Below, one piece after another: positions 10,933 through 61,504 of a stretch of DNA of 64,000 nucleotides; position 1 is the first letter of the stretch; each line of letters begins with the position of its first letter. The notes under the pieces are model-generated. The model was given only the letters and a program-made list of their open reading frames with translations, was not told where the DNA came from and did not search any database. Position numbers and translations under genes: made by a program. Origin of the DNA: Trypanosoma brucei (taxonomy: Eukaryota); assembly GCA_000002445.1 (NCBI GenBank), contig CP000071.1, positions 1,184,001-1,248,000 on the forward strand. The letters are read 5' to 3'.

Positions 10933-11160
10933 TCACAAGCAAGCTATCCCCCATTTAAAAGCACCTCCCATCCAAACCATTCCTATCGCGCCTCCCGCCA
11001 GCGCCGTACCAAGGAAGGCAAAGGCACGTCCCACGGAGGAAGCAGAAACCGCCATCGTATGCTTCTTCCTGCAGTTGATGCCACAAAGTGTAATAGAAGG
11101 AGTAAGTGGGATGACAGTGCACGTATCAGTGGGCATGAGCCGTACGGTGATGCGATGCAT
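10933..11160 (-). pseudogene. Truncated 5' fragment of the endonuclease-G-like gene, marking the left boundary of the tandem array.
   Basis: The 75-aa ORF is identical over its first 62 aa to the N-terminus of the 506-aa EndoG-like proteins at 16841..18361 and 26459..27979. It then diverges (MVWMGGAFKWGIACL versus MVVERGGWFGVDKCHP). Nucleotide identity with the other units ends near 10974. Confidence 0.6.
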
Positions 11161-12772: not shown

Positions 12773-14413
12773 TCACTCGAACGCCGGCAACCGTACAAAG
12801 GCGAACTTTACGTTGTACGGGCTTACCACCATCAGGAAAAGAAGTACGATAGCTACCGCACCAAGAAGTGCGGAGGAAACGATACCACCGAGACACACAC
12901 CGTCGCATCTAGATAGACGTGAGTCATCTCCGCATACGGACTCAGCTAAGGTAATGTGCTGGCAATCATCCACACACTTCACCATGCAGAGCGGCAACAG
13001 GTGACTCCACTGCTCTTGCTGCGACACTTCTTCAAGGAACATCCGGGTCCACGTCCATGGAGACGAGAACAGCCGCTTCTGCGCACGTCCCTTGCTCATG
13101 CCGGGGGGGCCCCTGTAGTTGGTAATAAGGATGGTATTCTCAAGGTTCATCATTGCAGTAAGGTTTGTCCACGTCGAAACATTTGTACCACCAGGCACGT
13201 TAATCTCACCGGGTGGAAGGAACACAGCATAGAAGTCCTCTGTACGAAAGGCTACCTCCACATCTTTTATAATCCATGAATACAGGGCGTGCATGAGCCG
13301 ATCATTTCCCATTGGGAACGAGGAAGCGCGAAAGGCGGCCACAGCTGTGGATCTCGGAGGTGACCCGGGCGTTGGCGTGGGAGTCACCGGCGGTAGTGGT
13401 GTTGGTGAATAGCATTTCTCACGGACGGCGTACACAGCTGTTTCGGTTATGGCATAATATTCACATCCATTCACCTTAACCAGTGAGACAATCGGCCCAT
13501 GCATCCACTCCATCACCTTCTTAGGGCACAACAGACCGGTTTCAGAGGAATTCAATTCAAGGGACATGATATGGCTCTCGCCGTTAGGTTCACCGTAATA
13601 ATAGAGCTCATTCTCGTCCTCAGTTAACATCAAGGCATCGACATAATCGAGACAACTCATATTGGCGATGTCCCAGCTCTTCTTGTTACCATCCGAATCG
13701 CTGAGGCTATTCAGGTCCACCGCTGCAATCCACGAGGTCTCCTTCACGACATACATGAAATTCCGCTTCTTGCTTATTTGCATCACACCAGGTTGAAAAC
13801 CTCCAACAAGTTTCGCCGTTACATTGTTGGACACACTTATCTGCGAGTACATAATCCTTGAATTTCCAGTATCCGAAATAAATAAAACCGGTGCCCCGTC
13901 TTGTTCATGATAAATAATACTACTCGGTTTATCAACTTCATTGGCCGCAAACTTCGTCACCATTCCATCAGCATCTATCCGCTTCATGCAATCATTATCC
14001 CTGTCCGCCACGTAAATATCATTGTTTACACCAACAACAGAGGTGGGATGATTAAAACGAGCAACCTCTAAAGGACCAACTTCGTCACCACGCTTTGCAA
14101 GATTTCCCGCAACGGTATATATGCCAGTTTTGTTTACGAGTCGCACGGTGGATCCACCACCTCCAACATCACATAAAAGTAAAGGAAAGCTTTTGTTCTT
14201 AAAGAACCCACCCACCGCCTTGAATAAGCGACCAGTACCGTTTATGCCATCCGCCTGCCCACTACTACAGTTGATACAACTGTTGAAGAGGTTCACAATC
14301 ACCTTGGTGCCCACGGTTTGGTCTCCTATAACGGGACTCACAAAACCCAGCAGCAGCAACAACGCTGCCACGAGTGCGGCCAATGCTTCCCGTGATTCAG
14401 TCCTGCCACCCAT
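12773..14413 (-). CDS. FLA1: Flagellum adhesion glycoprotein FLA1-like. 546 aa, with a signal peptide, an NHL-repeat beta-propeller ectodomain, many N-glycosylation sequons and a C-terminal TM helix. It lacks the 44-aa Pro-rich insert.
   Basis: The ATG was verified. The N-terminus MGGRTESREALAALVAALLLLLGFVSPVIG is signal-peptide-like. An NHL-type repeat is present (GIYTVAG...FNHPTSVVGVNNDIYVADRDNDCMKRID). The C-terminal TM is LLGAVAIVLLFLMVV. The 546-aa length, against the 590-aa paralogue, matches the published FLA1/FLA2 relationship. Confidence 0.75.
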   Translation of the reverse strand: MGGRTESREALAALVAALLLLLGFVSPVIGDQTVGTKVIVNLFNSCINCSSGQADGINGTGRLFKAVGGFFKNKSFPLLLCDVGGGGSTVRLVNKTGIYTVAGNLAKRGDEVGPLEVARFNHPTSVVGVNNDIYVADRDNDCMKRIDADGMVTKFAANEVDKPSSIIYHEQDGAPVLFISDTGNSRIMYSQISVSNNVTAKLVGGFQPGVMQISKKRNFMYVVKETSWIAAVDLNSLSDSDGNKKSWDIANMSCLDYVDALMLTEDENELYYYGEPNGESHIMSLELNSSETGLLCPKKVMEWMHGPIVSLVKVNGCEYYAITETAVYAVREKCYSPTPLPPVTPTPTPGSPPRSTAVAAFRASSFPMGNDRLMHALYSWIIKDVEVAFRTEDFYAVFLPPGEINVPGGTNVSTWTNLTAMMNLENTILITNYRGPPGMSKGRAQKRLFSSPWTWTRMFLEEVSQQEQWSHLLPLCMVKCVDDCQHITLAESVCGDDSRLSRCDGVCLGGIVSSALLGAVAIVLLFLMVVSPYNVKFAFVRLPAFE

Positions 14414-14451
14414 TCCTGTTGCTCCACACTGTGATTCTATCAGTCAGTCGC

Positions 14452-14490
14452 TATATGTATATATATATATATATGTATATACCCCACGGA
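14452..14490. repeat. (TA)n microsatellite with TG interruptions, in the FLA1 upstream region.
   Basis: The sequence reads tatatgtatatatatatatatatgtatata. It recurs at 24070-24100 and, as a pure (TA)n, at 33689-33716. Confidence 0.8.
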
Positions 14491-14599
14491 TCTACCGTTG
14501 GGAAACAAACCTCAACCACAAAAGCGACCTATTAGCTCTGCTCAGTGAACTCACAACTCCCTTTAGTTGTCTTGTGATGATATTATTATTCACACATCA

Positions 14600-14783: not shown

Positions 14784-15512
14784 CTAAGGCAACGCAGACC
14801 CGCCACCCGCCGGTCCCTTACCAATGTGGAGGAAATTGCAGTACTTCCCACGCCTGCAGCCCTCCCGAGTGAGGAAGAAAGTACATACCCTGCCATATGT
14901 TGCATTTCCCACGTGGCGCTCATTTCGACGGATCTGTGAGAGGCGGTAATCCTCAGAAGAGGATGCTGCACTGGTTGGGAGCAGTGGGGAACCTGCAGGG
15001 GATGGCAGTGGTGTAGCCATGTTCTGTTGATGAGCAGAGTTTCGACCACCCGCCACAACCCCTATTCCCTGTGACGGAGGGGCATGTGGTAGTGATGAGG
15101 ATGCGGTACCCCCCGCACATCCGTAAGGCGGTGTGGTGCCAGTAGCGCTGTTGTGTGGCAGGGGGCACTCCCTCATACGTCCTTCGGCATTAGCGTCCCG
15201 CGGACGACCTGAGGCTACTTGGAGTTCTATAGAGAAAGGGTCGGGGCAGTTAACGCCACAGTGTCCGTTTATGGCTGAATAGAATTCCATAAGTGCCTGA
15301 TGCGCTACGTGTGTCGGTGGGCGCAGCGAGAGGACGTTAGGTGTAGCAACGGACAACACTTTCTCCGATGATAGCGGTTGGTACGGCGAGTTCTGAATCT
15401 TGCGCACGAGGCACACTGCCGATGGGGCTGCATGCTCCACAATGTAGTTCACCATCGCTCTCGTTGTGAGTTGCTGGGTAGTTGACGTTGCTTCCGCAGA
15501 CGAGATGGTCAT
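14784..15512 (-). CDS. CCCH-type zinc-finger protein of 242 aa with a single C-x8-C-x5-C-x3-H finger at the C-terminus. Unit copy 1.
   Basis: The ATG was verified. The C-terminal motif CTFFLTREGCRRGKYCNFLH gives C-x8-C-x5-C-x3-H. The upstream region is Ser/Pro/Ala-rich and low-complexity. Confidence 0.65.
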   Translation of the reverse strand: MTISSAEATSTTQQLTTRAMVNYIVEHAAPSAVCLVRKIQNSPYQPLSSEKVLSVATPNVLSLRPPTHVAHQALMEFYSAINGHCGVNCPDPFSIELQVASGRPRDANAEGRMRECPLPHNSATGTTPPYGCAGGTASSSLPHAPPSQGIGVVAGGRNSAHQQNMATPLPSPAGSPLLPTSAASSSEDYRLSQIRRNERHVGNATYGRVCTFFLTREGCRRGKYCNFLHIGKGPAGGGSALP

Positions 15513-15746: not shown

Positions 15747-16445
15747 TTAGTCTTCCTCATCCTCTTTCCCTTCGTAACACACCTCACTTTCCTCCACTTC
15801 CTCATCGCTACTTTCCGATTCAACACCCGAAAAACATTGCCGCCGCAGATTCAAAACCCCACGCGAGTAGTACGTTGCCATTCTTTCCACAGGAAGACTT
15901 AGGAAGTCCTGCACGCATGACGCTCTGTGCTCTTGCATGAATGCTATCACGGCCCACAGTTCAGCCATAGCCCAGATGTCACTACGGAGGGGACTCTTCT
16001 TTTCTGCTTCACCATCCTTTGCAGCGATCGCCACGTGGTCAGTCTTGCTATTATTGTTAGCATGTGACATAGCCCCAGCAAGACACATGTGCTCACCAAC
16101 GAACTTCACTAGCCTATAGTTATGATTGGGATGCACCGTAACGTTTCCAGTGTTGGGACATGGTAGCAATAGGATAGGGGTCTCCTCATCCGTTATGTCC
16201 TGCAGCAACACACCCGCTTGTCCAAGTAGTTGCCGAAGGTTCAGGGACGGTGCGGCAGAGGGCACCTGAGTTACCCTCCCATTAATGCGGATAACAAAGT
16301 GCGCCTCCTCATCGGTTCCACACTCCTTAGATCGGCCGCGCTTGCGAGTTCCCTTAACCACTTCTTGACCCGCCAATCGTGTCATGACCTCTACCAATAC
16401 CTTTAGTGATTGATCAACGGGGGAGAAAATCTTAGATAAGCACAT
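15747..16445 (-). CDS. Hypothetical protein of about 232 aa with an acidic Ser/Glu/Asp C-terminal tail. Unit copy 1.
   Basis: The track ORF starts at TTG (16460). The first ATG gives MCLSKIFSPVDQ... The tail reads ESESSDEEVEESEVCYEGKEDEED. It is conserved in all three units. Confidence 0.55.
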   Translation of the reverse strand: MCLSKIFSPVDQSLKVLVEVMTRLAGQEVVKGTRKRGRSKECGTDEEAHFVIRINGRVTQVPSAAPSLNLRQLLGQAGVLLQDITDEETPILLLPCPNTGNVTVHPNHNYRLVKFVGEHMCLAGAMSHANNNSKTDHVAIAAKDGEAEKKSPLRSDIWAMAELWAVIAFMQEHRASCVQDFLSLPVERMATYYSRGVLNLRRQCFSGVESESSDEEVEESEVCYEGKEDEED

Positions 16446-16840
16446 ATGGATGGCGCGCAACTGAAGTTGGGATGGCGGCTCGACTGATGCAACGTGACGA
16501 CCAATCTTATCCTAGTCAGAGTGACGTGGTGTAGGTATGGTGAGGCCACTGCAGTCGGAACGCTGAGAGTGTTCAGCACTAAAAACATTTCACGGGAGGA
16601 TCCCTAAACTGACACAGCAACTGTTCATATGTCCACTACACGATGAACCAGGGATACCATCGCGGAGGTGTAATTTAATCCACAGACACTGCGGGAGGTA
16701 TTGCTGGGGTTAGATCTCGAATAGTGCTACAGGCACTCAACAATTGCCGGACACAAAAGACTAATGGACACACACACCGCTTTCTTTGCCTAAAGTGCAG
16801 CCCTGGAAAGTTACAAATAAGGAATGACAGGTACCGTGAG

Positions 16841-18361
16841 TTAACCGGTGTCGTTGGTCGACACAGCCATTAGTTCCCTCAGGCGCTCTCTATATTCCTG
16901 TGCTACAACCCCATCCAGAGCAACTGTTATTCCGGCTGTGTTGCCACACTTCTGCTGCTGTTCTGCAAGCAGGATGCTGTAAACACTCTGCAATTCAGGA
17001 AGAGAACCCGCCGCCCGTAGACGCGCCACGTCTCGGTACGAGCGAAACATTCCTGCGGTACGTGCTTCACACACCACGCGTCTGCAAATATTTGGCAGAG
17101 CATCCAGTTCCCGCCCCCAGAACCGCGCGTCTGACCCAGCAGCGGCCACATTCCGAAAGAACTCCAAACCCGTCAGTCGCTCGATTTCTACCACAGGCAC
17201 CTGGTAAGCTGTGAGGGGCCGCTCCACGGCAATCGGTTCGTTCGGCATTAGGAAGGCAGCAGCTTCATGTGCCCCGTCCGCTCGCTCACCTAATATAACT
17301 TTGAAGAGGTGTGTGGGGACCGCAACGTCGCGCTTGCCCACAAGCTCATAGCAGACAATCTTCCGCAAGTGCACTGCTGCCTTGTCATTTCCACAGTGGC
17401 AGTGTTCTCCAGAAGCCAACACTCCGCTACTCACAGGTTTTACTGGAGACGGACATTGCGATGGTTCCGCCCACCGCCACGTGCGCACATCACCATCCAC
17501 GAGCCGCGGGTGGAAGACAGGTCCCGTCACTACCCACAATCCCCTCTCATAATACCGCCGCAACTTCCGTGTGAGGTTTTCCAACCGCAGCCAGTCGACA
17601 GCATTCATTGTCATGTCCTGTGGTACAGTGTTCGCATTCATGTTAAAGGTCTGAGCCAACTCAACAGTAGAGCTCTTGTGAAACTGTGCGGCAGCAAGGT
17701 GACCTCGGCTGAGGCCTCGTGAGTGCTGTCCCCTGCCACCCCCAATATAGTCACCGGGCTGCACGCGGAACAACTGAGGCACCGTCATGTCCGCAAAGAA
17801 CCTCATTCCATCTCGCTGGGCTTCCGCTGCGGAAGCGTTTACTAAGTCGTTATCAGCCGTGACCACTGAATCAGCAGCAGTGGTCCTGCCGGGGATGTAC
17901 TCCAACACCCAATTAGGGATACGACGCTCATAATTCAGACTAGAAACAAAGCCTTTGTAGTAGCGCAGGTGATCGTCGGACGGAAGCCCCTTGCTTGTAA
18001 GTCTTAGCACGAAAGGAGTAGTTTCCCCACCATCGTCGTTACACCTCTCCTTGGGGTATGCGGGCTGTGGGCATTGCACGTGTAACACCTCCGGACTTGT
18101 GCGCTCAGTCATCTGTTGATACGGAACAGGCGATGGATGGCATTTGTCCACACCAAACCAACCACCACGCTCCACAACCATTCCTATCGCGCCTCCCGCC
18201 AGCGCCGTACCAAGGAAGGCAAAGGCACGTCCCACGGAGGAAGCAGAAACCGCCATCGTATGCTTCTTCCTGCAGTTGATGCCACAAAGTGTAATAGAAG
18301 GAGTAAGTGGGATGACAGTGCACGTATCAGTGGGCATGAGCCGTACGGTGATGCGATGCAT
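16841..18361 (-). CDS. EndoG: Endonuclease G-like DNA/RNA non-specific nuclease (beta-beta-alpha-Me family) with an N-terminal hydrophobic anchor/presequence. Unit copy 1.
   Basis: The active-site block LSRGHLAAAQFH corresponds to the metazoan FDRGHLAAAANH. MNANTVPQDMTMNAVDWLRLENLTRKL corresponds to the EndoG region LSNVAPQVPHLNQNAWNNLEKYSRSL. VVTGPVFHP corresponds to VCTGPLFLP. VAVPTHLFKVILGE...FLMPNEPI corresponds to IAVPTHFFKVLILE...YVMPNAPV. The N-terminal hydrophobic stretch is FAFLGTALAGGAIGMVV. Confidence 0.85.
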   Translation of the reverse strand: MHRITVRLMPTDTCTVIPLTPSITLCGINCRKKHTMAVSASSVGRAFAFLGTALAGGAIGMVVERGGWFGVDKCHPSPVPYQQMTERTSPEVLHVQCPQPAYPKERCNDDGGETTPFVLRLTSKGLPSDDHLRYYKGFVSSLNYERRIPNWVLEYIPGRTTAADSVVTADNDLVNASAAEAQRDGMRFFADMTVPQLFRVQPGDYIGGGRGQHSRGLSRGHLAAAQFHKSSTVELAQTFNMNANTVPQDMTMNAVDWLRLENLTRKLRRYYERGLWVVTGPVFHPRLVDGDVRTWRWAEPSQCPSPVKPVSSGVLASGEHCHCGNDKAAVHLRKIVCYELVGKRDVAVPTHLFKVILGERADGAHEAAAFLMPNEPIAVERPLTAYQVPVVEIERLTGLEFFRNVAAAGSDARFWGRELDALPNICRRVVCEARTAGMFRSYRDVARLRAAGSLPELQSVYSILLAEQQQKCGNTAGITVALDGVVAQEYRERLRELMAVSTNDTG

Positions 18362-19332
18362 TTTACGTATCGCTATGAGGTCCTTCCGTCCACATGACGA
18401 ATACAGCTACAAATGATCTTGCACTACAGCGGGTGGTATTAACGATAAGGTTACATCAGCTTCAGCACACTTTGCTTCTGCTTTTAACCCTAGACTTATC
18501 TAATCCCTGCCGCCCACGCAGTTGCATAATTAAATAGAAGATAATAAGGGAGAATGAAAATGAATGAAGATGGGAAAATACGGTGAAGGAACACAAAGGG
18601 CACTATAGCAGTATAGGAGCACGCCACAAGAAGATGTGCTCGGACAAGCGGATGGATCACCAACAAGATAGGGGACCTTCGGAGGGTTTCACAGTTGGAG
18701 TCAGCATGGACTCACCTCAAAGGAAGACAAATAAGGGAAAAGAATAGAAAAAATAAAATTACGTTCCCCTGTGGCACAACGACGGCAAGCGTCGGGGTAC
18801 CTGAAGCTGTACAGGCGTGCTCGCTGTAGCGACCGCACAGTCTTGTATTGTGCACTGCTTCACTGTAACATGATAGTTCATACCCCAATATATGTTGCCT
18901 ACAACCTTGTCCCCTACACACTCAGATGACACCGCACCAGTGGCATGCGGAACCGTAGTGGTAGGAGGCGGCAACCCAGGAACCTCCAGCAGCTGAAAAT
19001 ATAATTTTGATGGAGAGATCTCTAGATAGAGCCGGCGTCTATGTATAAACATGCCGGCTGCACTGAGGCCGGCGTAGGGTAACCCCAGAGCCGATGCCAA
19101 CAACAACAAAAAAAAGAAATAACGACCGATCAATAACGATAAGAATGATAATGGTGGAAATACATGTACATGTACGGGAGCACATGAATAACTAGTGAAT
19201 AGCGAAAATAGCGATCAGTTGAGTTACTGAGACCTTTCCACCCTGCTCTCACTCAGTTACTGCAAGCACGTGTTGCATGGGAGTGGAAGGACAGTAAGAC
19301 ATTGCGCATGTTTGTGTGATAGTCTAGGAAAT

Positions 19333-22257: not shown

Positions 22258-24030
22258 CTACTCCAGCGCCGGCAGTCGCACAAAAGTAGATCTTGCATTC
22301 GGTGGACTTGCTATGAGCAACCACAGCAGCATGATGGCAAGAAGGCCCAAGAGCACTGAGGAGGCGATTCCTGCAGCACGCAGGTCCTCATGCACCTGGA
22401 ACTGAAGCTCGTCTACACACAGAGATTCATTGAAGGAAATGTACTGACAATCATCCACACACTTCACCATGCAGAATGGTGATAGGTGATCCCACTCCTC
22501 TTGTCGTACCAATTCATCAAGAAACTTCCGTGTCCAGTTCCATGGAGACGAGAACAACCGCTTCTGTAGTTCTTGCTTGCTCCTACCAGGAGGCCCTTGG
22601 TAGTTGGTAATAAGGATGTTCTTGTCGAAGTTCTCTAGAGCTGTCAAGTTTGTCCACGTCGAAACATTTGTACCACCAGGCACGTCATTGTAACCTGGGG
22701 GGAGGAAAACAGCAAAAAAGTCATCTGTGCCGAAAGCGATCTCAACATCCCTCATAATCCACGAATACAGAGCATGCATAAGTTTTACATCATCAATTGG
22801 GAACGAAGAAGCGCGAAAGGCGGCAACAGCTGTGGGTCTCGGAGGTGAAGGGGGATCCGGATTGGGAGTAATCGGCGGCGGCGGCGGCGGCGGTGGTGGT
22901 GGTGGCGGTGGCGGTGGCGGCTGCACTGATGGTGATGGTGACGGCGATGCTGATGGGCTGGGAGAAGGTGATGGCGGCACCGAAGGCGTGGGAGGGGGCG
23001 TTGGTGGAGGCGTTGGCGTCGGTGTATAGCCTACATCACGAATGGCATACACGGCCGTTTCTGTTGTAGCATAATACTCTTTGTCATTCACCCTCAACAA
23101 TGAGACAATCCGATCATAGTCCCATTTCAACATTGACTGCGCACACCATTGGGATGCTGGAGATGGGCGTTCCACCTCTAGTGACATGATGTACCCCTCT
23201 CCATTGGGCTCACCGTAATAATATAGTTTATCCTCTGCTTGAGTCAGCATCAGAGCACTTTTGTAGTGCAGACACGTCACATCACCTATATCCTTACTTT
23301 TTCCAATATCAGACTCCCCAGTTTTGCTCAAATTAACCGCTGCAATCCATGAGGTGTTTTTTACGACATACATCATGTTCTTTTCTTTGCTTATTTGCAT
23401 CACACCAGGTTGGAAGCCAGCGACTAGTGTAGTTACCACTGTGTTATTAGCATCCAGTGGCACATAAAGGATCTGCGAATTGCCTGTGTCGGAAATGAAT
23501 AGATTCTGAGTCCCGTTCAATGTGAATGGGAGAATATCCTTCGGTTTGTTAAGGTCTTGTGGTCCATATCTGGTTACATTGCCCTCAGCATCTATTCGCC
23601 TAATACAGTTGTTATCCCTGTCTGCCACGTAAATATCATCGTTGACGCTTACAACTGAGGTGGGATTGTTGAATAGTGCATCTCCCTTGGGGCCGTCTTT
23701 ATTACCACGTTGCGTCAGACTGCCTGCAATTGTATATATGCCAGTTTTGTTTACGAGTCGCACGGTGGATCCACCACCTTCGATATCACATAAAAGTAAA
23801 GGAAAACGCTTCTTTTGGAAGAAACCACCAGACGCCTTGAAAAGTTTTCCCTTTGCACTTTCGCCATCCGCCTGCCCAACAGTACAAGTAGTACAACTGT
23901 TGAAGAGGTTCACAATCACCTTGGTGCCCACGGTTTGGTCTCCTATAACGGGACTCACAAAACCCAGCAGCAGCAACAACGCTGCCACGAGTGCGGCCAA
24001 TGCTTCCCGTGATTCAGTCCTGCCACCCAT
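22258..24030 (-). CDS. FLA2: Flagellum adhesion glycoprotein FLA2-like. 590 aa. It is the FLA1 paralogue with a 44-aa Pro-rich insertion between the propeller and the membrane-proximal domain. Unit copy 2.
   Basis: The ATG was verified. It shares the signal peptide and NHL repeats with the 546-aa protein. The extra stalk reads TPTPTPPPTPPPTPSVPPSPSPSPSASPSPSPSVQPPPPPPPPPPPPPPPPITPNPDPPSPP. The C-terminal TM is LLGLLAIMLLWLLIA. Confidence 0.75.
   Translation of the reverse strand: MGGRTESREALAALVAALLLLLGFVSPVIGDQTVGTKVIVNLFNSCTTCTVGQADGESAKGKLFKASGGFFQKKRFPLLLCDIEGGGSTVRLVNKTGIYTIAGSLTQRGNKDGPKGDALFNNPTSVVSVNDDIYVADRDNNCIRRIDAEGNVTRYGPQDLNKPKDILPFTLNGTQNLFISDTGNSQILYVPLDANNTVVTTLVAGFQPGVMQISKEKNMMYVVKNTSWIAAVNLSKTGESDIGKSKDIGDVTCLHYKSALMLTQAEDKLYYYGEPNGEGYIMSLEVERPSPASQWCAQSMLKWDYDRIVSLLRVNDKEYYATTETAVYAIRDVGYTPTPTPPPTPPPTPSVPPSPSPSPSASPSPSPSVQPPPPPPPPPPPPPPPPITPNPDPPSPPRPTAVAAFRASSFPIDDVKLMHALYSWIMRDVEIAFGTDDFFAVFLPPGYNDVPGGTNVSTWTNLTALENFDKNILITNYQGPPGRSKQELQKRLFSSPWNWTRKFLDELVRQEEWDHLSPFCMVKCVDDCQYISFNESLCVDELQFQVHEDLRAAGIASSVLLGLLAIMLLWLLIASPPNARSTFVRLPALE
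22874..22918. repeat. GGN trinucleotide repeat, (GGC/GGT)15, encoding the poly-Pro run of FLA2 on the minus strand.
   Basis: The sequence reads ggcggcggcggcggcggtggtggtggtggcggtggcggtggcggc. An identical copy lies at 32492-32536. It is absent from the 546-aa paralogue. Confidence 0.85.
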
Positions 24031-24401: not shown

Positions 24402-25130
24402 CTAAGGCAACGCAGACCCGCCACCCGCCGGTCCCTTACCAATGTGGAGGAAATTGCAGTACTTCCCACGCCTGCAGCCCTCCCGAGTGAGGAAGAAAGT
24501 ACATACCCTGCCATATGTTGCATTTCCCACGTGGCGCTCATTTCGACGGATCTGTGAGAGGCGGTAATCCTCAGAAGAGGATGCTGCACTGGTTGGGAGC
24601 AGTGGGGAACCTGCAGGGGATGGCAGTGGTGTAGCCATGTTCTGTTGATGAGCAGAGTTTCGACCACCCGCCACAACCCCTATTCCCTGTGACGGAGGGG
24701 CATGTGGTAGTGATGAGGATGCGGTACCCCCCGCACATCCGTAAGGCGGTGTGGTGCCAGTAGCGCTGTTGTGTGGCAGGGGGCACTCCCTCATACGTCC
24801 TTCGGCATTAGCGTCCCGCGGACGACCTGAGGCTACTTGGAGTTCTATAGAGAAGGGGTCGGGGCAGTTAACGCCACAGTGTCCGTTTATGGCTGAATAG
24901 AATTCCATAAGTGCCTGATGCGCTACGTGTGTCGGTGGGCGCAGCGAGAGGACGTTAGGTGTAGCAACGGACAACACTTTCTCCGATGATAGCGGTTGGT
25001 ACGGCGAGTTCTGAATCTTGCGCACGAGGCACACTGCCGATGGGGCTGCATGCTCCACAATGTAGTTCACCATCGCTCTCGTTGTGAGTTGCTGGGTAGT
25101 TGACGTTGCTTCCGCAGACGAGATGGTCAT
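24402..25130 (-). CDS. CCCH zinc-finger protein, 242 aa, unit copy 2. Identical to copy 1.
   Basis: The protein is identical to that of 14784..15512. Confidence 0.65.
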   Translation of the reverse strand: MTISSAEATSTTQQLTTRAMVNYIVEHAAPSAVCLVRKIQNSPYQPLSSEKVLSVATPNVLSLRPPTHVAHQALMEFYSAINGHCGVNCPDPFSIELQVASGRPRDANAEGRMRECPLPHNSATGTTPPYGCAGGTASSSLPHAPPSQGIGVVAGGRNSAHQQNMATPLPSPAGSPLLPTSAASSSEDYRLSQIRRNERHVGNATYGRVCTFFLTREGCRRGKYCNFLHIGKGPAGGGSALP

Positions 25131-25364: not shown

Positions 25365-26063
25365 TTAGTCTTCCTCATCCTCTTTCCCTTCGTAACACAC
25401 CTCACTTTCCTCCACTTCCTCATCGCTACTTTCCGATTCAACACCCGAAAAACATTGCCGCCGCAGATTCAAAACCCCACGCGAGTAGTACGTTGCCATT
25501 CTTTCCACAGGAAGACTTAGGAAGTCCTGCACGCATGACGCTCTGTGCTCTTGCATGAATGCTATCACGGCCCACAGTTCAGCCATAGCCCAGATGTCAC
25601 TACGGAGGGGACTCTTCTTTTCTGCTTCACCATCCTTTGCAGCGATCGCCACGTGGTCAGTCTTGCTATTATTGTTAGCATGTGACATAGCCCCAGCAAG
25701 ACACATGTGCTCACCAACGAACTTCACTAGCCTATAGTTATGATTGGGATGCACCGTAACGTTTCCAGTGTTGGGACATGGTAGCAATAGGATAGGGGTC
25801 TCCTCATCCGTTATGTCCTGCAGCAACACACCCGCTTGTCCAAGTAGTTGCCGAAGGTTCAGGGACGGTGCGGCAGAGGGCACCTGAGTTACCCTCCCAT
25901 TAATGCGGATAACAAAGTGCGCCTCCTCATCGGTTCCACACTCCTTAGATCGGCCGCGCTTGCGAGTTCCCTTAACCACTTCTTGACCCGCCAATCGTGT
26001 CATGACCTCTACCAATACCTTTAGTGATTGATCAACGGGGGAGAAAATCTTAGATAAGCACAT
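25365..26063 (-). CDS. Hypothetical acidic-tailed protein, about 232 aa, unit copy 2.
   Basis: The protein is identical to copy 1. The ATG at 26063-26061 was verified, and the track start at 26078 is a TTG. Confidence 0.55.
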   Translation of the reverse strand: MCLSKIFSPVDQSLKVLVEVMTRLAGQEVVKGTRKRGRSKECGTDEEAHFVIRINGRVTQVPSAAPSLNLRQLLGQAGVLLQDITDEETPILLLPCPNTGNVTVHPNHNYRLVKFVGEHMCLAGAMSHANNNSKTDHVAIAAKDGEAEKKSPLRSDIWAMAELWAVIAFMQEHRASCVQDFLSLPVERMATYYSRGVLNLRRQCFSGVESESSDEEVEESEVCYEGKEDEED

Positions 26064-26458
26064 ATGGATGGCGCGCAACTGAAGTTGGGATGGCGGCTCG
26101 ACTGATGCAACGTGACGACCAATCTTATCCTAGTCAGAGTGACGTGGTGTAGGTATGGTGAGGCCACTGCAGTCGGAACGCTGAGAGTGTTCAGCACTAA
26201 AAACATTTCACGGGAGGATCCCTAAACTGACACAGCAACTGTTCATATGTCCACTACACGATGAACCAGGGATACCATCGCGGAGGTGTAATTTAATCCA
26301 CAGACACTGCGGGAGGTATTGCTGGGGTTAGATCTCGAATAGTGCTACAGGCACTCAACAATTGCCGGACACAAAAGACTAATGGACACACACACCGCTT
26401 TCTTTGCCTAAAGTGCAGCCCTGGAAAGTTACAAATAAGGAATGACAGGTACCGTGAG

Positions 26459-27979
26459 TTAACCGGTGTCGTTGGTCGACACAACCATTAGTTCCCTCAG
26501 GCGCTCTCTATATTCCTGTGCTACAACCCCATCCAGAGCAACTGTTATTCCGGCTGTGTTGCCACACTTCTGCTGCTGTTCTGCAAGCAGGATGCTGTAA
26601 ACACTCTGCAATTCAGGAAGAGAACCCGCCGCCCGTAGACGCGCCACGTCTCGGTACGAGCGAAACATTCCTGCGGTACGTGCTTCACACACCACGCGTC
26701 TGCAAATATTTGGCAGAGCATCCAGTTCCCGCCCCCAGAACCGCGCGTCTGACCCAGCAGCGGCCACATTCCGAAAGAACTCCAAACCCGTCAGTCGCTC
26801 GATTTCTACCACAGGCACCTGGTAAGCTGTGAGGGGCCGCTCCACGGCAATCGGTTCGTTCGGCATTAGGAAGGCAGCAGCTTCATGTGCCCCGTCCGCT
26901 CGCTCACCTAATATAACTTTGAAGAGGTGTGTGGGGACCGCAACGTCGCGCTTGCCCACAAGCTCATAGCAGACAATCTTCCGCAAGTGCACTGCTGCCT
27001 TGTCATTTCCACAGTGGCAGTGTTCTCCAGAAGCCAACACTCCGCTACTCACAGGTTTTACTGGAGACGGACATTGCGATGGTTCCGCCCACCGCCACGT
27101 GCGCACATCACCATCCACGAGCCGCGGGTGGAAGACAGGTCCCGTCACTACCCACAATCCCCTCTCATAATACCGCCGCAACTTCCGTGTGAGGTTTTCC
27201 AACCGCAGCCAGTCGACAGCATTCATTGTCATGTCCTGTGGTACAGTGTTCGCATTCATGTTAAAGGTCTGAGCCAACTCAACAGTAGAGCTCTTGTGAA
27301 ACTGTGCGGCAGCAAGGTGACCTCGGCTGAGGCCTCGTGAGTGCTGTCCCCTGCCACCCCCAATATAGTCACCGGGCTGCACGCGGAACAACTGAGGCAC
27401 CGTCATGTCCGCAAAGAACCTCATTCCATCTCGCTGGGCTTCCGCTGCGGAAGCGTTTACTAAGTCGTTATCAGCCGTGACCACTGAATCAGCAGCAGTG
27501 GTCCTGCCGGGGATGTACTCCAACACCCAATTAGGGATACGACGCTCATAATTCAGACTAGAAACAAAGCCTTTGTAGTAGCGCAGGTGATCGTCGGACG
27601 GAAGCCCCTTGCTTGTAAGTCTTAGCACGAAAGGAGTAGTTTCCCCACCATCGTCGTTACACCTCTCCTTGGGGTATGCGGGCTGTGGGCATTGCACGTG
27701 TAACACCTCCGGACTTGTGCGCTCAGTCATCTGTTGATACGGAACAGGCGATGGATGGCATTTGTCCACACCAAACCAACCACCACGCTCCACAACCATT
27801 CCTATCGCGCCTCCCGCCAGCGCCGTACCAAGGAAGGCAAAGGCACGTCCCACGGAGGAAGCAGAAACCGCCATCGTATGCTTCTTCCTGCAGTTGATGC
27901 CACAAAGTGTAATAGAAGGAGTAAGTGGGATGACAGTGCACGTATCAGTGGGCATGAGCCGTACGGTGATGCGATGCAT
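26459..27979 (-). CDS. EndoG: Endonuclease G-like nuclease, unit copy 2.
   Basis: It differs from copy 1 by one residue (ELMVVSTNDTG versus ELMAVSTNDTG). Confidence 0.85.
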   Translation of the reverse strand: MHRITVRLMPTDTCTVIPLTPSITLCGINCRKKHTMAVSASSVGRAFAFLGTALAGGAIGMVVERGGWFGVDKCHPSPVPYQQMTERTSPEVLHVQCPQPAYPKERCNDDGGETTPFVLRLTSKGLPSDDHLRYYKGFVSSLNYERRIPNWVLEYIPGRTTAADSVVTADNDLVNASAAEAQRDGMRFFADMTVPQLFRVQPGDYIGGGRGQHSRGLSRGHLAAAQFHKSSTVELAQTFNMNANTVPQDMTMNAVDWLRLENLTRKLRRYYERGLWVVTGPVFHPRLVDGDVRTWRWAEPSQCPSPVKPVSSGVLASGEHCHCGNDKAAVHLRKIVCYELVGKRDVAVPTHLFKVILGERADGAHEAAAFLMPNEPIAVERPLTAYQVPVVEIERLTGLEFFRNVAAAGSDARFWGRELDALPNICRRVVCEARTAGMFRSYRDVARLRAAGSLPELQSVYSILLAEQQQKCGNTAGITVALDGVVAQEYRERLRELMVVSTNDTG

Positions 27980-28950
27980 TTTACGTATCGCTATGAGGTC
28001 CTTCCGTCCACATGACGAATACAGCTACAAATGATCTTGCACTACAGCGGGTGGTATTAACGATAAGGTTACATCAGCTTCAGCACACTTTGCTTCTGCT
28101 TTTAACCCTAGACTTATCTAATCCCTGCCGCCCACGCAGTTGCATAATTAAATAGAAGATAATAAGGGAGAATGAAAATGAATGAAGATGGGAAAATACG
28201 GTGAAGGAACACAAAGGGCACTATAGCAGTATAGGAGCACGCCACAAGAAGATGTGCTCGGACAAGCGGATGGATCACCAACAAGATAGGGGACCTTCGG
28301 AGGGTTTCACAGTTGGAGTCAGCATGGACTCACCTCAAAGGAAGACAAATAAGGGAAAAGAATAGAAAAAATAAAATTACGTTCCCCTGTGGCACAACGA
28401 CGGCAAGCGTCGGGGTACCTGAAGCTGTACAGGCGTGCTCGCTGTAGCGACCGCGCAGTCTTGTATTGTGCACTGCTTCACTGTAACATGATAGTTCATA
28501 CCCCAATATATGTTGCCTACAACCTTGTCCCCTACACACTCAGATGACACCGCACCAGTGGCATGCGGAACCGTAGTGGTAGGAGGCGGCAACCCAGGAA
28601 CCTCCAGCAGCTGAAAATATAATTTTGATGGAGAGATCTCTAGATAGAGCCGGCGTCTATGTATAAACATGCCGGCTGCACTGAGGCCGGCGTAGGGTAA
28701 CCCCAGAGCCGATGCCAACAACAACAAAAAAAAGAAATAACGACCGATCAATAACGATAAGAATGATAATGGTGGAAATACATGTACATGTACGGGAGCA
28801 CATGAATAACTAGTGAATAGCGAAAATAGCGATCAGTTGAGTTACTGAGACCTTTCCACCCTGCTCTCACTCAGTTACTGCAAGCACGTGTTGCATGGGA
28901 GTGGAAGGACAGTAAGACATTGCGCATGTTTGTGTGATAGTCTAGGAAAT

Positions 28951-31875: not shown

Positions 31876-33648
31876 CTACTCCAGCGCCGGCAGTCGCACA
31901 AAAGTAGATCTTGCATTCGGTGGACTTGCTATGAGCAACCACAGCAGCATGATGGCAAGAAGGCCCAAGAGCACTGAGGAGGCGATTCCTGCAGCACGCA
32001 GGTCCTCATGCACCTGGAACTGAAGCTCGTCTACACACAGAGATTCATTGAAGGAAATGTACTGACAATCATCCACACACTTCACCATGCAGAATGGTGA
32101 TAGGTGATCCCACTCCTCTTGTCGTACCAATTCATCAAGAAACTTCCGTGTCCAGTTCCATGGAGACGAGAACAACCGCTTCTGTAGTTCTTGCTTGCTC
32201 CTACCAGGAGGCCCTTGGTAGTTGGTAATAAGGATGTTCTTGTCGAAGTTCTCTAGAGCTGTCAAGTTTGTCCACGTCGAAACATTTGTACCACCAGGCA
32301 CGTCATTGTAACCTGGGGGGAGGAAAACAGCAAAAAAGTCATCTGTGCCGAAAGCGATCTCAACATCCCTCATAATCCACGAATACAGAGCATGCATAAG
32401 TTTTACATCATCAATTGGGAACGAAGAAGCGCGAAAGGCGGCAACAGCTGTGGGTCTCGGAGGTGAAGGGGGATCCGGATTGGGAGTAATCGGCGGCGGC
32501 GGCGGCGGCGGTGGTGGTGGTGGCGGTGGCGGTGGCGGCTGCACTGATGGTGATGGTGACGGCGATGCTGATGGGCTGGGAGAAGGTGATGGCGGCACCG
32601 AAGGCGTGGGAGGGGGCGTTGGTGGAGGCGTTGGCGTCGGTGTATAGCCTACATCACGAATGGCATACACGGCCGTTTCTGTTGTAGCATAATACTCTTT
32701 GTCATTCACCCTCAACAATGAGACAATCCGATCATAGTCCCATTTCAACATTGACTGCGCACACCATTGGGATGCTGGAGATGGGCGTTCCACCTCTAGT
32801 GACATGATGTACCCCTCTCCATTGGGCTCACCGTAATAATATAGTTTATCCTCTGCTTGAGTCAGCATCAGAGCACTTTTGTAGTGCAGACACGTCACAT
32901 CACCTATATCCTTACTTTTTCCAATATCAGACTCCCCAGTTTTGCTCAAATTAACCGCTGCAATCCATGAGGTGTTTTTTACGACATACATCATGTTCTT
33001 TTCTTTGCTTATTTGCATCACACCAGGTTGGAAGCCAGCGACTAGTGTAGTTACCACTGTGTTATTAGCATCCAGTGGCACATAAAGGATCTGCGAATTG
33101 CCTGTGTCGGAAATGAATAGATTCTGAGTCCCGTTCAATGTGAATGGGAGAATATCCTTCGGTTTGTTAAGGTCTTGTGGTCCATATCTGGTTACATTGC
33201 CCTCAGCATCTATTCGCCTAATACAGTTGTTATCCCTGTCTGCCACGTAAATATCATCGTTGACGCTTACAACTGAGGTGGGATTGTTGAATAGTGCATC
33301 TCCCTTGGGGCCGTCTTTATTACCACGTTGCGTCAGACTGCCTGCAATTGTATATATGCCAGTTTTGTTTACGAGTCGCACGGTGGATCCACCACCTCCA
33401 ACATCACATAAAAGTAAAGGAAAGCTTTTGTTCTTAAAGAACCCACCCACCGCCTTGAATAAGCGACCAGTACCGTTTATGCCATCCGCCTGCCCACTAC
33501 TACAGTTGATACAACTGTTGAAGAGGTTCACAATCACCTTGGTGCCCACGGTTTGGTCTCCTATAACGGGACTCACAAAACCCAGCAGCAGCAACAACGC
33601 TGCCACGAGTGCGGCCAATGCTTCCCGTGATTCAGTCCTGCCACCCAT
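31876..33648 (-). CDS. FLA2: FLA2-like 590-aa glycoprotein, unit copy 3. It is mosaic: residues about 47-95 are of FLA1 type.
   Basis: The body of the protein, including the Pro-rich insert, is identical to 22258..24030. The segment NSCINCSSGQADGINGTGRLFKAVGGFFKNKSFPLLLCDVGGGGSTVRLV is identical to the 546-aa paralogue and differs from copy 2 (NSCTTCTVGQADGESAKGKLFKASGGFFQKKRFPLLLCDIEGGGSTVRLV). Confidence 0.75.
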   Translation of the reverse strand: MGGRTESREALAALVAALLLLLGFVSPVIGDQTVGTKVIVNLFNSCINCSSGQADGINGTGRLFKAVGGFFKNKSFPLLLCDVGGGGSTVRLVNKTGIYTIAGSLTQRGNKDGPKGDALFNNPTSVVSVNDDIYVADRDNNCIRRIDAEGNVTRYGPQDLNKPKDILPFTLNGTQNLFISDTGNSQILYVPLDANNTVVTTLVAGFQPGVMQISKEKNMMYVVKNTSWIAAVNLSKTGESDIGKSKDIGDVTCLHYKSALMLTQAEDKLYYYGEPNGEGYIMSLEVERPSPASQWCAQSMLKWDYDRIVSLLRVNDKEYYATTETAVYAIRDVGYTPTPTPPPTPPPTPSVPPSPSPSPSASPSPSPSVQPPPPPPPPPPPPPPPPITPNPDPPSPPRPTAVAAFRASSFPIDDVKLMHALYSWIMRDVEIAFGTDDFFAVFLPPGYNDVPGGTNVSTWTNLTALENFDKNILITNYQGPPGRSKQELQKRLFSSPWNWTRKFLDELVRQEEWDHLSPFCMVKCVDDCQYISFNESLCVDELQFQVHEDLRAAGIASSVLLGLLAIMLLWLLIASPPNARSTFVRLPALE

Positions 33649-34016: not shown

Positions 34017-34745
34017 CTAAGGCAACGCAGACCCGCCACCCGCCGGTCCCTTACCAATGTGGAGGAAATTGCAGTACTTCCCACGCCTGCAGCCCTCCCG
34101 AGTGAGGAAGAAAGTACATACCCTGCCATATGTTGCATTTCCCACGTGGCGCTCATTTCGACGGATCTGTGAGAGGCGGTAATCCTCAGAAGAGGATGCT
34201 GCACTGGTTGGGAGCAGTGGGGAACCTGCAGGGGATGGCAGTGGTGTAGCCATGTTCTGTTGATGAGCAGAGTTTCGACCACCCGCCACAACCCCTATTC
34301 CCTGTGACGGAGGGGCATGTGGTAGTGATGAGGATGCGGTACCCCCCGCACATCCGTAAGGCGGTGTGGTGCCAGTAGCGCTGTTGTGTGGCAGGGGGCA
34401 CTCCCTCATACGTCCTTCGGCATTAGCGTCCCGCGGACGACCTGAGGCTACTTGGAGTTCTATAGAGAAGGGGTCGGGGCAGTTAACGCCACAGTGTCCG
34501 TTTATGGCTGAATAGAATTCCATAAGTGCCTGATGCGCTACGTGTGTCGGTGGGCGCAGCGAGAGGACGTTAGGTGTAGCAACGGACAACACTTTCTCCG
34601 ATGATAGCGGTTGGTACGGCGAGTTCTGAATCTTGCGCACGAGGCACACTGCCGATGGGGCTGCATGCTCCACAATGTAGTTCACCATCGCTCTCGTTGT
34701 GAGTTGCTGGGTAGTTGACGTTGCTTCCGCAGACGAGATGGTCAT
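34017..34745 (-). CDS. CCCH zinc-finger protein, unit copy 3. Identical.
   Basis: The protein is identical to copies 1 and 2. Confidence 0.65.
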   Translation of the reverse strand: MTISSAEATSTTQQLTTRAMVNYIVEHAAPSAVCLVRKIQNSPYQPLSSEKVLSVATPNVLSLRPPTHVAHQALMEFYSAINGHCGVNCPDPFSIELQVASGRPRDANAEGRMRECPLPHNSATGTTPPYGCAGGTASSSLPHAPPSQGIGVVAGGRNSAHQQNMATPLPSPAGSPLLPTSAASSSEDYRLSQIRRNERHVGNATYGRVCTFFLTREGCRRGKYCNFLHIGKGPAGGGSALP

Positions 34746-35675: not shown

Positions 35676-35867
35676 ATGGATGGCGCGAAGCCGGTGTTGC
35701 AAGAGCTAGGCCATTGATAGGGATACACTTTCCCATCTTTATTGGGTTGACAAGACTCTATGCGGGTGATTTGCTTTGTTTGCTGGTATCTTACGTTAAC
35801 ATGCTGTAGATTGGCCTGCTAGCAGGCACAAAATGTGAGTCTTCCCTTTTGCATTTACCCTACTGCG

Positions 35868-49364: not shown

Positions 49365-49387
49365 TATATATATATATATATATATAT
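49365..49387. repeat. (TA)12 microsatellite.
   Basis: The sequence reads atatatatatatatatatatatat. Further (TA)n blocks lie at 49548-49568, 56150-56176, 57999-58021 and 58960-58978. Confidence 0.85.
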
Positions 49388-55234: not shown

Positions 55235-55258
55235 GTGTGTGTGTGTGTGTGTGTGTGT
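55235..55258. repeat. (GT)12 microsatellite.
   Basis: The sequence reads gtgtgtgtgtgtgtgtgtgtgtgt. A shorter (CA)7 lies at 54125-54138. Confidence 0.85.
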
Positions 55259-61469: not shown

Positions 61470-61473
61470 TCTT

Positions 61474-61504
<31 letters not shown>

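What the first reader, a model, noticed from the sequence alone, without database searches (positions are those of the whole stretch)
16841..18361. EndoG-like nuclease embedded in every array unit: an SRGH active-site variant and two alternative in-frame ATGs
The homology to metazoan EndoG is unambiguous across four blocks. However, the canonical DRGH catalytic motif reads S-R-G-H (LSRGHLAAAQFH). The catalytic His and the downstream Mg-binding Asn region (FLMPNEP) are retained. The ORF offers two starts. These are MHRITVRL... and, 35 codons downstream, MAVSASSVGRAFAFLGTALAGGAIGMVV, which would begin directly with the hydrophobic anchor and so resembles a mitochondrial inner-membrane-anchored EndoG. 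A nuclease gene is co-amplified with surface-adhesion genes, giving two intact copies plus one truncated copy, which is unusual.
Basis: partly seen in the sequence, partly recalled or inferred. Interest (0 to 1): 0.5.

Follow-up and report, generated by a model that had tools for sequence, protein, structure and literature searches.

The report
Known trypanosome mitochondrial nuclease, duplicated
This is the already characterised Trypanosoma brucei "endonuclease G" gene (Tb927.8.4040/4090, also called KP56); its Ser-Arg-Gly-His active site is the normal, published signature of this enzyme branch, so the finding is ordinary apart from a probably mis-set start codon.

Summary
The sequence facts hold. 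A 506-codon minus-strand ORF (16841-18361) matches Pfam Endonuclease_NS (E 3e-47). A second copy lies 9618 bp away and differs by 1 nt (A499V). A 5' fragment lies at 10933-11160. The protein is identical to T. brucei TREU927 "endonuclease G, putative" (Tb927.8.4040/.4090), so the window is the chromosome 8 FLA1/FLA1BP locus.

SRGH is not an oddity. 49 of 52 aligned homologues carry Ser at that column, and human EXOG has it too. It has been studied by mutagenesis in Leishmania EndoG and in EXOG.

By alignment with LiEndoG Asn246, the metal ligand is N253 (MTMNAVDW).

The downstream ATG (M36) is the conserved start. Every orthologue begins there, and T. vivax, T. cruzi and T. theileri have in-frame stops 2-9 codons upstream. 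However, the published 5' end (window 18506) lies upstream of both ATGs, so spliced-leader mapping does not settle the start. A translated 10-codon uORF ends 1 nt before ATG1, and translation efficiency is low (about 0.08-0.1).

Co-amplification with the FLA genes is passive: FLA-FLA1BP-EndoG synteny is ancestral in Trypanosoma. Overall the finding is already known and of low interest.

The parts
16841..18361 (-). Annotated ORF of Tb927.8.4040 (endonuclease G, putative; KP56), 506 codons starting at ATG1
   Evidence: ORF list. Pfam PF01223 at E 3e-47. Exact sequence match to XP_847235/AAZ13169. Chr8 coordinates 1200841-1202361 equal window coordinate + 1,184,000.
16841..18256 (-). Conserved ORF from M36 (471 codons), the start shared by all kinetoplastid orthologues
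   Evidence: Orthologue N-termini align to M36. In-frame stops lie 2, 4 and 9 codons upstream in T. vivax, T. cruzi and T. theileri. The context cauAcgAUGgCg has -3A, +4G and +5C.
18257..18361 (-). 35-codon in-frame extension found only in the T. brucei group (MHRITVRLMPTDTCTVIPLTPSITLCGINCRKKHT). It contains ATG1 (18361) and an in-frame ATG at codon 9 (18337). It also holds a pyrimidine tract followed by AG at 18271-18270, a possible but unproven internal splice acceptor.
   Evidence: Absent from all orthologues. Codon-usage log-odds is -0.05, against 0.06-0.33 for the 13 later blocks of the ORF and within the lowest 3.4% of in-frame windows of other genes. Sequence read.
18362..18506 (-). 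Mapped 5' UTR (144-145 nt). The exon starts at 18506, just after AG 18508-18507. It contains ATG-TAA (18456-18451) and a 10-codon uORF (18395-18363) whose stop is 1 nt before ATG1.
   Evidence: Vasquez 2014 supplement: transcript Tb927_08_v4:1200841-1202506(-), 5'UTR 144 nt, 1 uORF, 1 translated uORF of 32 nt, TE 0.098 (BF) and 0.075 (PF). Sequence read.
18531..18605 (-). Polypyrimidine tract upstream of the trans-splice acceptor. The poly(A) site of the upstream FLA1BP mRNA is at about 18658.
   Evidence: Sequence. Kolev 2010 Table S13 gives the major PAS of Tb927.8.4050 at 1202658.
18170..18229 (-). N-terminal hydrophobic segment (residues 45-64, RAFAFLGTALAGGAIGMVVE), a predicted signal-anchor or transmembrane helix
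   Evidence: Highest 19-residue Kyte-Doolittle window in the protein, 1.64. AF2 model has a helix at 9-29 in M36 numbering, but this segment has low model confidence (mean pLDDT 43-49). Analogous to the EXOG TMS 16-38 that is required for mitochondrial import.
17699..17710 (-). Active-site motif S218-R219-G220-H221. H221 is the general base.
   Evidence: Role taken from LiEndoG His214 and EXOG His140 in the literature.
17579..17605 (-). N253 (Mg2+ ligand), A254 (partner of the Ser) ... E261, on the helix of the beta-beta-alpha-Me finger (MNAVDWLRLE)
   Evidence: Alignment to LiEndoG Asn246/Ala247/Glu254. N and E are invariant in 52 of 52 sequences; position 254 is A or G in 49 of 52.
17234..17254 (-). 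FLMPNEP (370-376).
   Evidence: Position. N is invariant in 52 of 52 sequences. The metal ligand is assigned elsewhere by Oliva 2017.
16850..17053 (-). C-terminal extension forming three helices (annotated residues about 437-504), like the EXOG / LiEndoG C-terminal domain
   Evidence: AF2 helices 402-415, 419-436 and 449-469 in M36 numbering, pLDDT about 89-97. Foldseek alignments reach about 385 columns only with EXOG, against about 290 with EndoG. LiEndoG CTD is described as a three-helix bundle like EXOG.
26459..27979 (-). Second intact copy (Tb927.8.4090), differing by 1 nt (A499V)
   Evidence: The same difference is reported in bioRxiv 10.1101/2024.04.22.590512.
10933..11160 (-). Truncated copy at the array edge. 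It has the same 5' UTR and the first ~62 codons, then unrelated sequence (75-codon ORF).
   Evidence: tblastn, DNA alignment and translation.

Best explanation
The ORF is the T. brucei nuclear gene for the mitochondrial, kinetoplast-associated sugar-non-specific beta-beta-alpha-Me nuclease called TbEndoG or KP56 (Tb927.8.4040). A near-identical paralogue (Tb927.8.4090) sits one array unit away, and a 5' stump sits at the array edge.

The enzyme belongs to the SRGH (EXOG-like) branch of the Endonuclease_NS family. By homology, H221 activates the attacking water and N253 binds Mg2+ directly. Q248 and E261 hold Mg-bound waters. S218 hydrogen-bonds the N253 carboxamide. S218 is paired with the small residue A254, whereas DRGH enzymes pair Asp with Arg at that position.

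A conserved N-terminal hydrophobic helix targets and anchors the protein in the mitochondrion. A C-terminal three-helix domain, as in EXOG and LiEndoG, shapes substrate choice. Published RNAi data indicate a role in kDNA maintenance.

The functional start is most probably M36 (my estimate about 0.6). The 35 upstream codons are a T. brucei-lineage accident of an open 5' leader. The leader also carries a translated uORF that ends 1 nt before ATG1, and this goes with very low translation of a potentially toxic nuclease.

The gene is in the array only because it lies between FLA1BP and the next genes in an ancestral syntenic block that T. brucei duplicated wholesale.

Shown here: identity, motif conservation, the start conservation, synteny, the 5' end and uORF data, and the fold. 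Inferred: which AUG is used, reinitiation past ATG1, and membrane anchoring.
For: - Identity: exact match to XP_847235 and XP_847240; Pfam E 3e-47.
- Motif: Ser in 49 of 52 aligned homologues, with Asp only in the 2 metazoan sequences; N253, E261, Q248 and H221 invariant; residue 254 is A or G in 49 of 52 but R or Q in the DRGH sequences.
- Motif in the literature: human EXOG has SRGH. LiEndoG S211D is nearly dead and is rescued by A247R; the Mg ligand is Asn246. EXOG is defined by SRGH, an N-terminal TMS and a C-terminal domain.
- Fold: AF2 pLDDT 80.7, pTM 0.79. Top Foldseek hits are human EXOG at E 3e-26 with about 385 aligned columns. EndoG hits align about 290 columns at rmsd 3-4 A.
- Function: KP56 localises to the kinetoplast, and RNAi gives slow growth and loss of maxicircles and minicircles.
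- Start: all orthologues begin at the M36 equivalent. In-frame stops lie 2, 4 and 9 codons upstream in three species. The extension has non-coding-like codon usage. M36 has the +5C context that matters in T. brucei, whereas ATG1 has +5A. The uORF stop is 1 nt before ATG1 and the uORF is translated; TE is 0.075-0.098.
- Synteny: hyp237-ZnF-FLA-FLA1BP-EndoG in T. vivax, and FLA-FLA1BP-EndoG in T. cruzi and T. theileri.
Against: - The mapped major 5' end (window 18506) is upstream of ATG1, so ATG1 is on the mRNA. It is the first in-frame AUG and has -3A.
- Kolev 2010 did not list Tb927.8.4040 or .4090 among 532 genes with a splice site inside the ORF, although it listed neighbours in the same array.
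- Databases and the 2019 ORFeome design still use ATG1.
- The Kozak effect measured in T. brucei is only about 2-fold.
- Reinitiation rules are inferred from other eukaryotes.
- The T. congolense contig is cut before the N-terminus, so the closest outgroup is uninformative.
- The C-terminal domain superposes on EXOG with high rmsd of 11-12 A.
Confidence: 0.85

Rival explanations
1. ATG1 is the true start in T. brucei. The 35-residue extension is basic and rich in Ser/Thr, and it acts as a lineage-specific, presequence-like addition ahead of the anchor, cleaved or tolerated.
For: - The 5' end at 18506 puts ATG1 on the mRNA, and ATG1 has -3A.
- The gene is not in Kolev's list of misannotated starts.
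- The extension has 5 K/R against 1 D/E, and 8 S/T.
- The KP56 tagging check sequenced the region upstream of the integrated DNA. This suggests tagging at the annotated N-terminus, yet localisation was still mitochondrial and kinetoplast-associated; the text is ambiguous.
Against: - No orthologue has the extension, and in-frame stops lie just upstream in three species.
- Codon usage of the extension is unlike the rest of the ORF.
- +5A is the weakening change in the T. brucei reporter assay.
- The uORF stop abuts ATG1.
Confidence: 0.22
2. Both AUGs are used, through leaky scanning, reinitiation or stage-specific alternative trans-splicing. This would give two isoforms with different targeting or abundance.
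For: - RNA coverage of the 5' UTR relative to the CDS is about 0.8-1.05 in bloodstream forms but about 0.16-0.23 in procyclics, for both copies (values, with column headers).
- A pyrimidine tract plus AG lies 13-15 nt before M36.
- Alternative trans-splicing that changes N-termini is documented in T. brucei: PMC2916883 and PMC3273800 appear in the literature search, abstracts only.
Against: - No internal acceptor is reported for this gene in any of the supplements I could search.
- Coverage ratios near transcript ends are noisy, and the two copies are not uniquely mappable.
Confidence: 0.15
3. The Ser in place of Asp marks a weakened or inactive, pseudo-enzyme-like nuclease.
For: The protein departs from the PROSITE DRGH signature, as stated in Oliva 2017.
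Against: - SRGH enzymes are active. EXOG and LiEndoG are nucleases, and changing Ser to Asp lowers their activity.
- All other catalytic residues are invariant.
- The RNAi phenotype affects kDNA.
Confidence: 0.02
4. The nuclease is functionally coupled to the flagellum-adhesion genes and was co-amplified under selection for that reason.
For: It is present in each full unit of the array.
Against: - The same gene order exists without amplification in T. vivax, T. cruzi and T. theileri.
- Trypanosome genes are transcribed polycistronically without operon-like functional grouping (established knowledge).
- The protein is mitochondrial, whereas the FLA proteins are on the surface and flagellum.
- The array edge cuts through the ORF, as expected for an arbitrary segmental duplication.
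Confidence: 0.03

Closest known systems
Trypanosoma brucei endonuclease G / KP56 (Tb927.8.4040, Tb927.8.4090)
   Same: Identical protein sequence. Identical chromosome coordinates after the +1,184,000 offset. The same single A/V difference between copies.
   Different: Nothing differs: it is this gene. The only point I add is that the annotated start (hence the '56 kDa' name) is probably 35 codons too long.
Leishmania infantum/donovani EndoG (LiEndoG; Oliva et al. 2017, PMC5587815)
   Same: 38% identity across the catalytic core and C-terminal domain. It shares SRGH with Ala after the Mg-binding Asn, the expanded beta-hairpin insert, the C-terminal helical extension and two conserved Cys near the start of the C-terminal domain.
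   Different: T. brucei lacks the ~32-residue Leishmania insert after the catalytic helix. Its counterpart of the acidic 'pH-sensor' insert 1 is about 18 residues shorter and less acidic. Whether pH self-inhibition applies is therefore untested.
Human EXOG (PDB 4A1N, 5T3V, 5ZKJ; Cymerman et al. 2008, PMC2275078)
   Same: SRGH motif, an N-terminal hydrophobic segment and an extra C-terminal helical domain. It is the best sequence and fold match among solved structures.
   Different: Only about 26% identity. The C-terminal domain is placed differently in the model (rmsd 11-12 A). There are trypanosomatid-specific inserts. LiEndoG gave no mono- or dinucleotide products, so it is 'not a bona fide exonuclease'. 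Orthology to metazoan EXOG was not tested.
Metazoan EndoG sensu stricto (mouse/human EndoG, C. elegans CPS-6, Drosophila CG8862)
   Same: The same beta-beta-alpha-Me core superposes at rmsd 3-4 A over about 290 columns. Both are mitochondrial.
   Different: These enzymes have DRGH with Arg or Gln after the Mg-binding Asn. They have no C-terminal domain and no trypanosomatid inserts.

Membership tests
Endonuclease_NS (Pfam PF01223) / beta-beta-alpha-Me sugar-non-specific nucleases | Profile match above the curated threshold | tested here: met
   161.4 bits against a cutoff of 23, E 3.3e-47, profile positions 7-222 of 223
Endonuclease_NS (Pfam PF01223) / beta-beta-alpha-Me sugar-non-specific nucleases | Catalytic His in x-R-G-H, a Mg-binding Asn about 30 residues downstream, and a conserved Glu | tested here: met
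   H221, N253 (+32) and E261 (+40) are all invariant in 52 of 52 aligned homologues. They correspond to LiEndoG H214, N246 and E254.
Endonuclease_NS (Pfam PF01223) / beta-beta-alpha-Me sugar-non-specific nucleases | Fold of the family | tested here: met
   AF2 model with pTM 0.79. Foldseek matches EXOG, EndoG, CPS-6 and Serratia nuclease with probability 1.00.
EndoG sensu stricto (DRGH nucleases, PROSITE PDOC00821 as cited by Oliva 2017) | Asp in the D-R-G-H motif, paired with Arg/Gln after the Mg-binding Asn | tested here: not met
   S218 aligns with the Asp of the two DRGH sequences, and A254 replaces R/Q
EndoG sensu stricto (DRGH nucleases, PROSITE PDOC00821 as cited by Oliva 2017) | Compact enzyme without an extra C-terminal domain | tested here: not met
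   An extension of about 100 residues forms three confident helices
EXOG-type nucleases (Cymerman 2008) | SRGH catalytic motif | tested here: met
EXOG-type nucleases (Cymerman 2008) | N-terminal hydrophobic transmembrane segment needed for mitochondrial uptake | tested here: inconclusive
   A hydrophobic 19-mer (KD 1.64) and an AF2 helix 9-29 are present, though AF2 confidence for this helix is low (mean pLDDT 43-49). The requirement for import and the membrane insertion cannot be tested with these tools.
EXOG-type nucleases (Cymerman 2008) | Additional C-terminal helical (wing / coiled-coil) domain | tested here: inconclusive
   Three C-terminal helices are present, and only EXOG alignments extend over them (about 385 columns), but at rmsd 11-12 A
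EXOG-type nucleases (Cymerman 2008) | 5'-3' exonuclease activity | not testable with these tools
   Biochemical property. The Leishmania orthologue produced no mono- or dinucleotides.
EXOG-type nucleases (Cymerman 2008) | Phylogenetic orthology to metazoan EXOG rather than independent retention or origin of Ser | not tested
   phmmer scores do not discriminate: EXOG 101 bits, fly EndoG 98 bits, mouse EndoG 87 bits. No tree was built.
Trypanosomatid EndoG (TbEndoG/LiEndoG) | SRGH plus Ala after the Mg-binding Asn, trypanosomatid inserts and C-terminal domain, and orthologous position next to FLA1BP | tested here: met
   Exception: Leishmania insert 2 is absent and insert 1 is shorter.

The most novel reading that the evidence does not exclude
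The T. brucei-specific open 5' extension, the abutting translated uORF and a possible stage-dependent change in the 5' end together form a switch. It would produce either a long (M1) or a short (M36) precursor, tuning the amount or the sub-mitochondrial destination (kDNA disc versus inner membrane) of a dangerous nuclease between bloodstream and procyclic forms.
Probability: 0.08. Interest if true: 0.35.

Novelty: already known. Interest (0 to 1): 0.1.

Why it matters
There is little new here. The gene, its duplication, its SRGH motif and the biochemical rationale for that motif are all published.

The practical value is small:
- The correct catalytic residue map for the T. brucei protein is S218, H221, Q248, N253 and E261. 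The metal ligand is not in FLMPNEP.
- The database start codon is probably 35 codons too far upstream. This matters for N-terminal tagging, recombinant expression, targeting prediction and the stated mass (about 52 kDa rather than 56 kDa).
- The mRNA carries a translated uORF and is poorly translated, which fits tight control of a nuclease.

Tried and rejected
- I searched the supplements of Kolev 2010, Nilsson 2010 and Jensen 2014 for splice-site or footprint data on Tb927.8.4040/.4090. Nothing was found. The large per-site tables were truncated when stored. Kolev Table S1 is complete and lacks the gene.
- The Siegel 2010 supplements are not held. Gannavaram 2008 and Parsons 2015 are not held.
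- The ORFeome supplement only repeats the annotated coordinates.
- The T. congolense contig, the closest outgroup, starts inside the ORF, so it says nothing about the extension.
- My first guess that the Mg-binding Asn was in NANTVPQD was rejected after counting from LiEndoG His214 to Asn246.
- The 415-aa ORF at 35868-37115, which I first suspected was the truncated copy, is unrelated. The real fragment is at 10933-11160.
- The AT-rich 48-64 kb stretch was checked for centromere-type tandem repeats. Only short low-complexity runs were found.
- TargetP and MitoProt were not available. Only charge and hydropathy were computed.
- The codon-usage test is weak, with only 35 codons.
Full report
**What is there**

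The region 16841-18361 holds a 506-codon ORF on the minus strand. It matches Pfam PF01223 (DNA/RNA non-specific endonuclease) at E 3.3e-47 over almost the whole profile.

A second copy lies exactly 9618 bp away, at 26459-27979. It differs by one nucleotide (window 16866 G versus A), which gives A499V.

A third, truncated copy starts at 11160. It shares the 5' leader and about 62 codons, then runs into unrelated sequence and stops after 75 codons. The ORF at 35868-37115, which might be mistaken for the third copy, is unrelated.

The strand is minus. There is also a third in-frame ATG, at codon 9 (18337).

**Identity**

The exact protein is in public databases as "endonuclease G, putative" of T. 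brucei brucei TREU927 (XP_847235 and XP_847240). Near-identical entries exist for T. b. gambiense, T. evansi-group strains and a 1996 "putative nuclease" record.

Published coordinates (Tb927_08:1200841-1202361 and 1210459-1211979) equal window coordinates plus 1,184,000. The genes are therefore Tb927.8.4040 and Tb927.8.4090.

The neighbouring ORFs are the NHL-repeat FLA genes, FLA1BP, a CCCH zinc-finger protein and a 237-aa conserved protein.

A 2024 preprint names Tb927.8.4040 "KP56". It shows kinetoplast localisation, and RNAi causes slowed growth and loss of maxicircles and minicircles. It also notes the single Ala/Val difference between the two copies.

**The SRGH motif**

In a 52-sequence alignment the column of S218 reads S49/C1/D2. 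The two Asp belong to the only two metazoan DRGH sequences, so the Ser really does sit at the Asp position.

Across all retrieved homologues with a recognisable motif, 74 of 79 have SRGH. This count includes nine near-identical T. brucei-group entries. The rest have SKGH, CRGH or TRGH, and only the two metazoan sequences have DRGH. The Ser is therefore lineage-wide in kinetoplastids and beyond.

Human EXOG, the best match among solved structures, also has SRGH. Cymerman et al. defined EXOG by SRGH, an N-terminal transmembrane segment and an extra C-terminal domain.

Oliva et al. showed the following for Leishmania EndoG:
- S211D nearly abolishes activity.
- S211A is tolerated.
- S211D/A247R restores about 75% of activity, because in DRGH enzymes an Arg after the metal-binding Asn holds the Asp in place.

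The same covariation is visible in my alignment. The residue after the Asn is A or G in 49 of 52 sequences, and R or Q only in the DRGH sequences.

**Correct residue map**

Counting from LiEndoG H214, Q241, N246 and E254 through the pairwise alignment gives T. brucei H221, Q248, N253 and E261 in annotated numbering. All four are invariant.

Its Asn is invariant, but it is not the published metal ligand.

**Architecture**

An AlphaFold2 model built from M36 (mean pLDDT 80.7, pTM 0.79) shows these elements:
- an N-terminal helix at residues 9-29, though this N-terminal segment is modelled with low confidence (mean pLDDT 43-49);
- a disordered linker;
- the nuclease core;
- two low-confidence inserts;
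- three confident C-terminal helices.

Foldseek ranks human EXOG first, at E 3e-26 with about 385 aligned columns but rmsd 11-12 A. EndoG, CPS-6 and the fly enzyme align only over the core, at about 290 columns and rmsd 3-4 A. This matches the published view that the trypanosomatid C-terminal domain resembles the EXOG three-helix domain.

Compared with Leishmania, T. brucei lacks one ~32-residue insert and has a shorter, less acidic version of the "pH-sensor" insert.

**Which start codon**

Every orthologue in hand begins at the M36 equivalent, with the pattern M-x(2-8)-[GA]R-hydrophobic stretch. These orthologues are T. vivax, T. theileri, T. melophagium, T. rangeli, T. conorhini, T. cruzi, Leishmania, Leptomonas, Novymonas and Bodo.

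In genomic DNA of T. vivax, T. cruzi and T. theileri, an in-frame stop lies 2, 4 and 9 codons upstream of that ATG. In T. brucei the frame stays open for 50 codons.

Three weaker lines of evidence point the same way:
- The 35-codon extension scores -0.05 on a codon-usage log-odds built from other genes in the window. This is below all 13 later blocks of the same ORF (0.06-0.33) and within the lowest 3.4% of true in-frame windows. It is suggestive only, given the length.
- In the T. brucei Kozak study the consensus is gaaAagAUGgCc, and +5C is the experimentally important base. M36 reads cauAcgAUGgCg, whereas ATG1 reads cguAaaAUGcAu, with the +5A that lowered reporter translation.
- Reinitiation after the uORF described below is unlikely at ATG1, which sits only 1 nt past the uORF stop.

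Against this, the published transcript model places the 5' end at chr8:1202506, which is window 18506. That is the first base after the first AG (18508-18507) following a long pyrimidine tract. Both ATGs are therefore on the mRNA.

In addition, Kolev et al. did not list this gene among ORFs with an internal splice site, although array neighbours were listed.

The same leader contains ATG-TAA (18456-18451) and a 10-codon uORF (18395-18363) whose stop is separated from ATG1 by a single base. Vasquez et al. score one uORF as translated. They report more footprints in the 5' UTR than in the CDS, and translation efficiencies of 0.098 (bloodstream forms) and 0.075 (procyclics).

My reading, by inference from general eukaryotic reinitiation behaviour, is that ribosomes finishing the uORF cannot reinitiate 1 nt downstream and resume at a later AUG. 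Ribosomes that skip the uORF could still use ATG1.

I put M36 as the main functional start at about 0.6, M1 at about 0.22, and both at about 0.15.

**Why a nuclease sits in an adhesion-gene array**

In T. vivax the order is hyp237 - CCCH-ZnF - FLA - FLA1BP - EndoG. In T. cruzi and T. theileri it is FLA - FLA1BP - EndoG. In T. congolense, EndoG is followed by the hyp237 homologue.

The linkage therefore predates the T. brucei amplification. The array edge cuts through the nuclease ORF, as expected for an arbitrary segmental duplication in a polycistronic unit. Nothing suggests functional coupling.

**Verdict**

This is a correctly spotted but already known gene with an already explained motif. 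The residual points of use are the corrected catalytic map, the likely over-extended start codon and the uORF-laden, poorly translated leader.

Noticed in passing
window 18362-18506 and 27980-28124 (5' UTRs of both copies): In the Vasquez 2014 tables, RNA coverage of the 5' UTR relative to the CDS is about 0.8-1.05 in bloodstream forms but only about 0.16-0.23 in procyclic forms, for both copies. This could mean a stage-specific downstream splice acceptor, or it could be coverage noise.
   Followed up: partly
window 15747-16460, 25365-26078, 34980-35702: The 237-240-codon ORFs of each unit (Tb927.8.4080/.4130 and relatives) are listed by Kolev 2010 as having misannotated start codons, with the splice site inside the ORF. 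So start-codon problems are common in this array.
   Followed up: no
window 48000-64000: GC content drops from about 50% to 30-40%, with few long ORFs. Tandem Repeats Finder shows only short A/T-rich low-complexity runs and no long satellite. These are probably long UTRs and intergenic DNA rather than a centromere.
   Followed up: partly
window 12773-14413 versus 22258-24030 and 31876-33648: The first FLA gene (546 aa) differs from the two downstream copies (590 aa). Identity falls to 80-86% at the unit edge (13961-14501 and 12948-13363), so the array mixes a diverged FLA1 with near-identical FLA2/FLA3-type copies.
   Followed up: no
window 14784-15512, 24402-25130, 34017-34745: Each unit also carries a 242-aa protein with a weak C-terminal CCCH zinc-finger match (below the Pfam cutoff). 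It is conserved next to the FLA genes in T. vivax.
   Followed up: no
window 16900-17214 (+) and 17309-17722 (+): ORFs of 104 and 137 codons lie antisense to the nuclease gene. They have no support and are most likely chance open frames in a GC-balanced coding region.
   Followed up: no
window 18658: The published major poly(A) site of the upstream FLA1BP mRNA (Tb927.8.4050) lies about 150 nt upstream of the nuclease splice acceptor. This fits the usual coupling of polyadenylation to the downstream trans-splice site.
   Followed up: no
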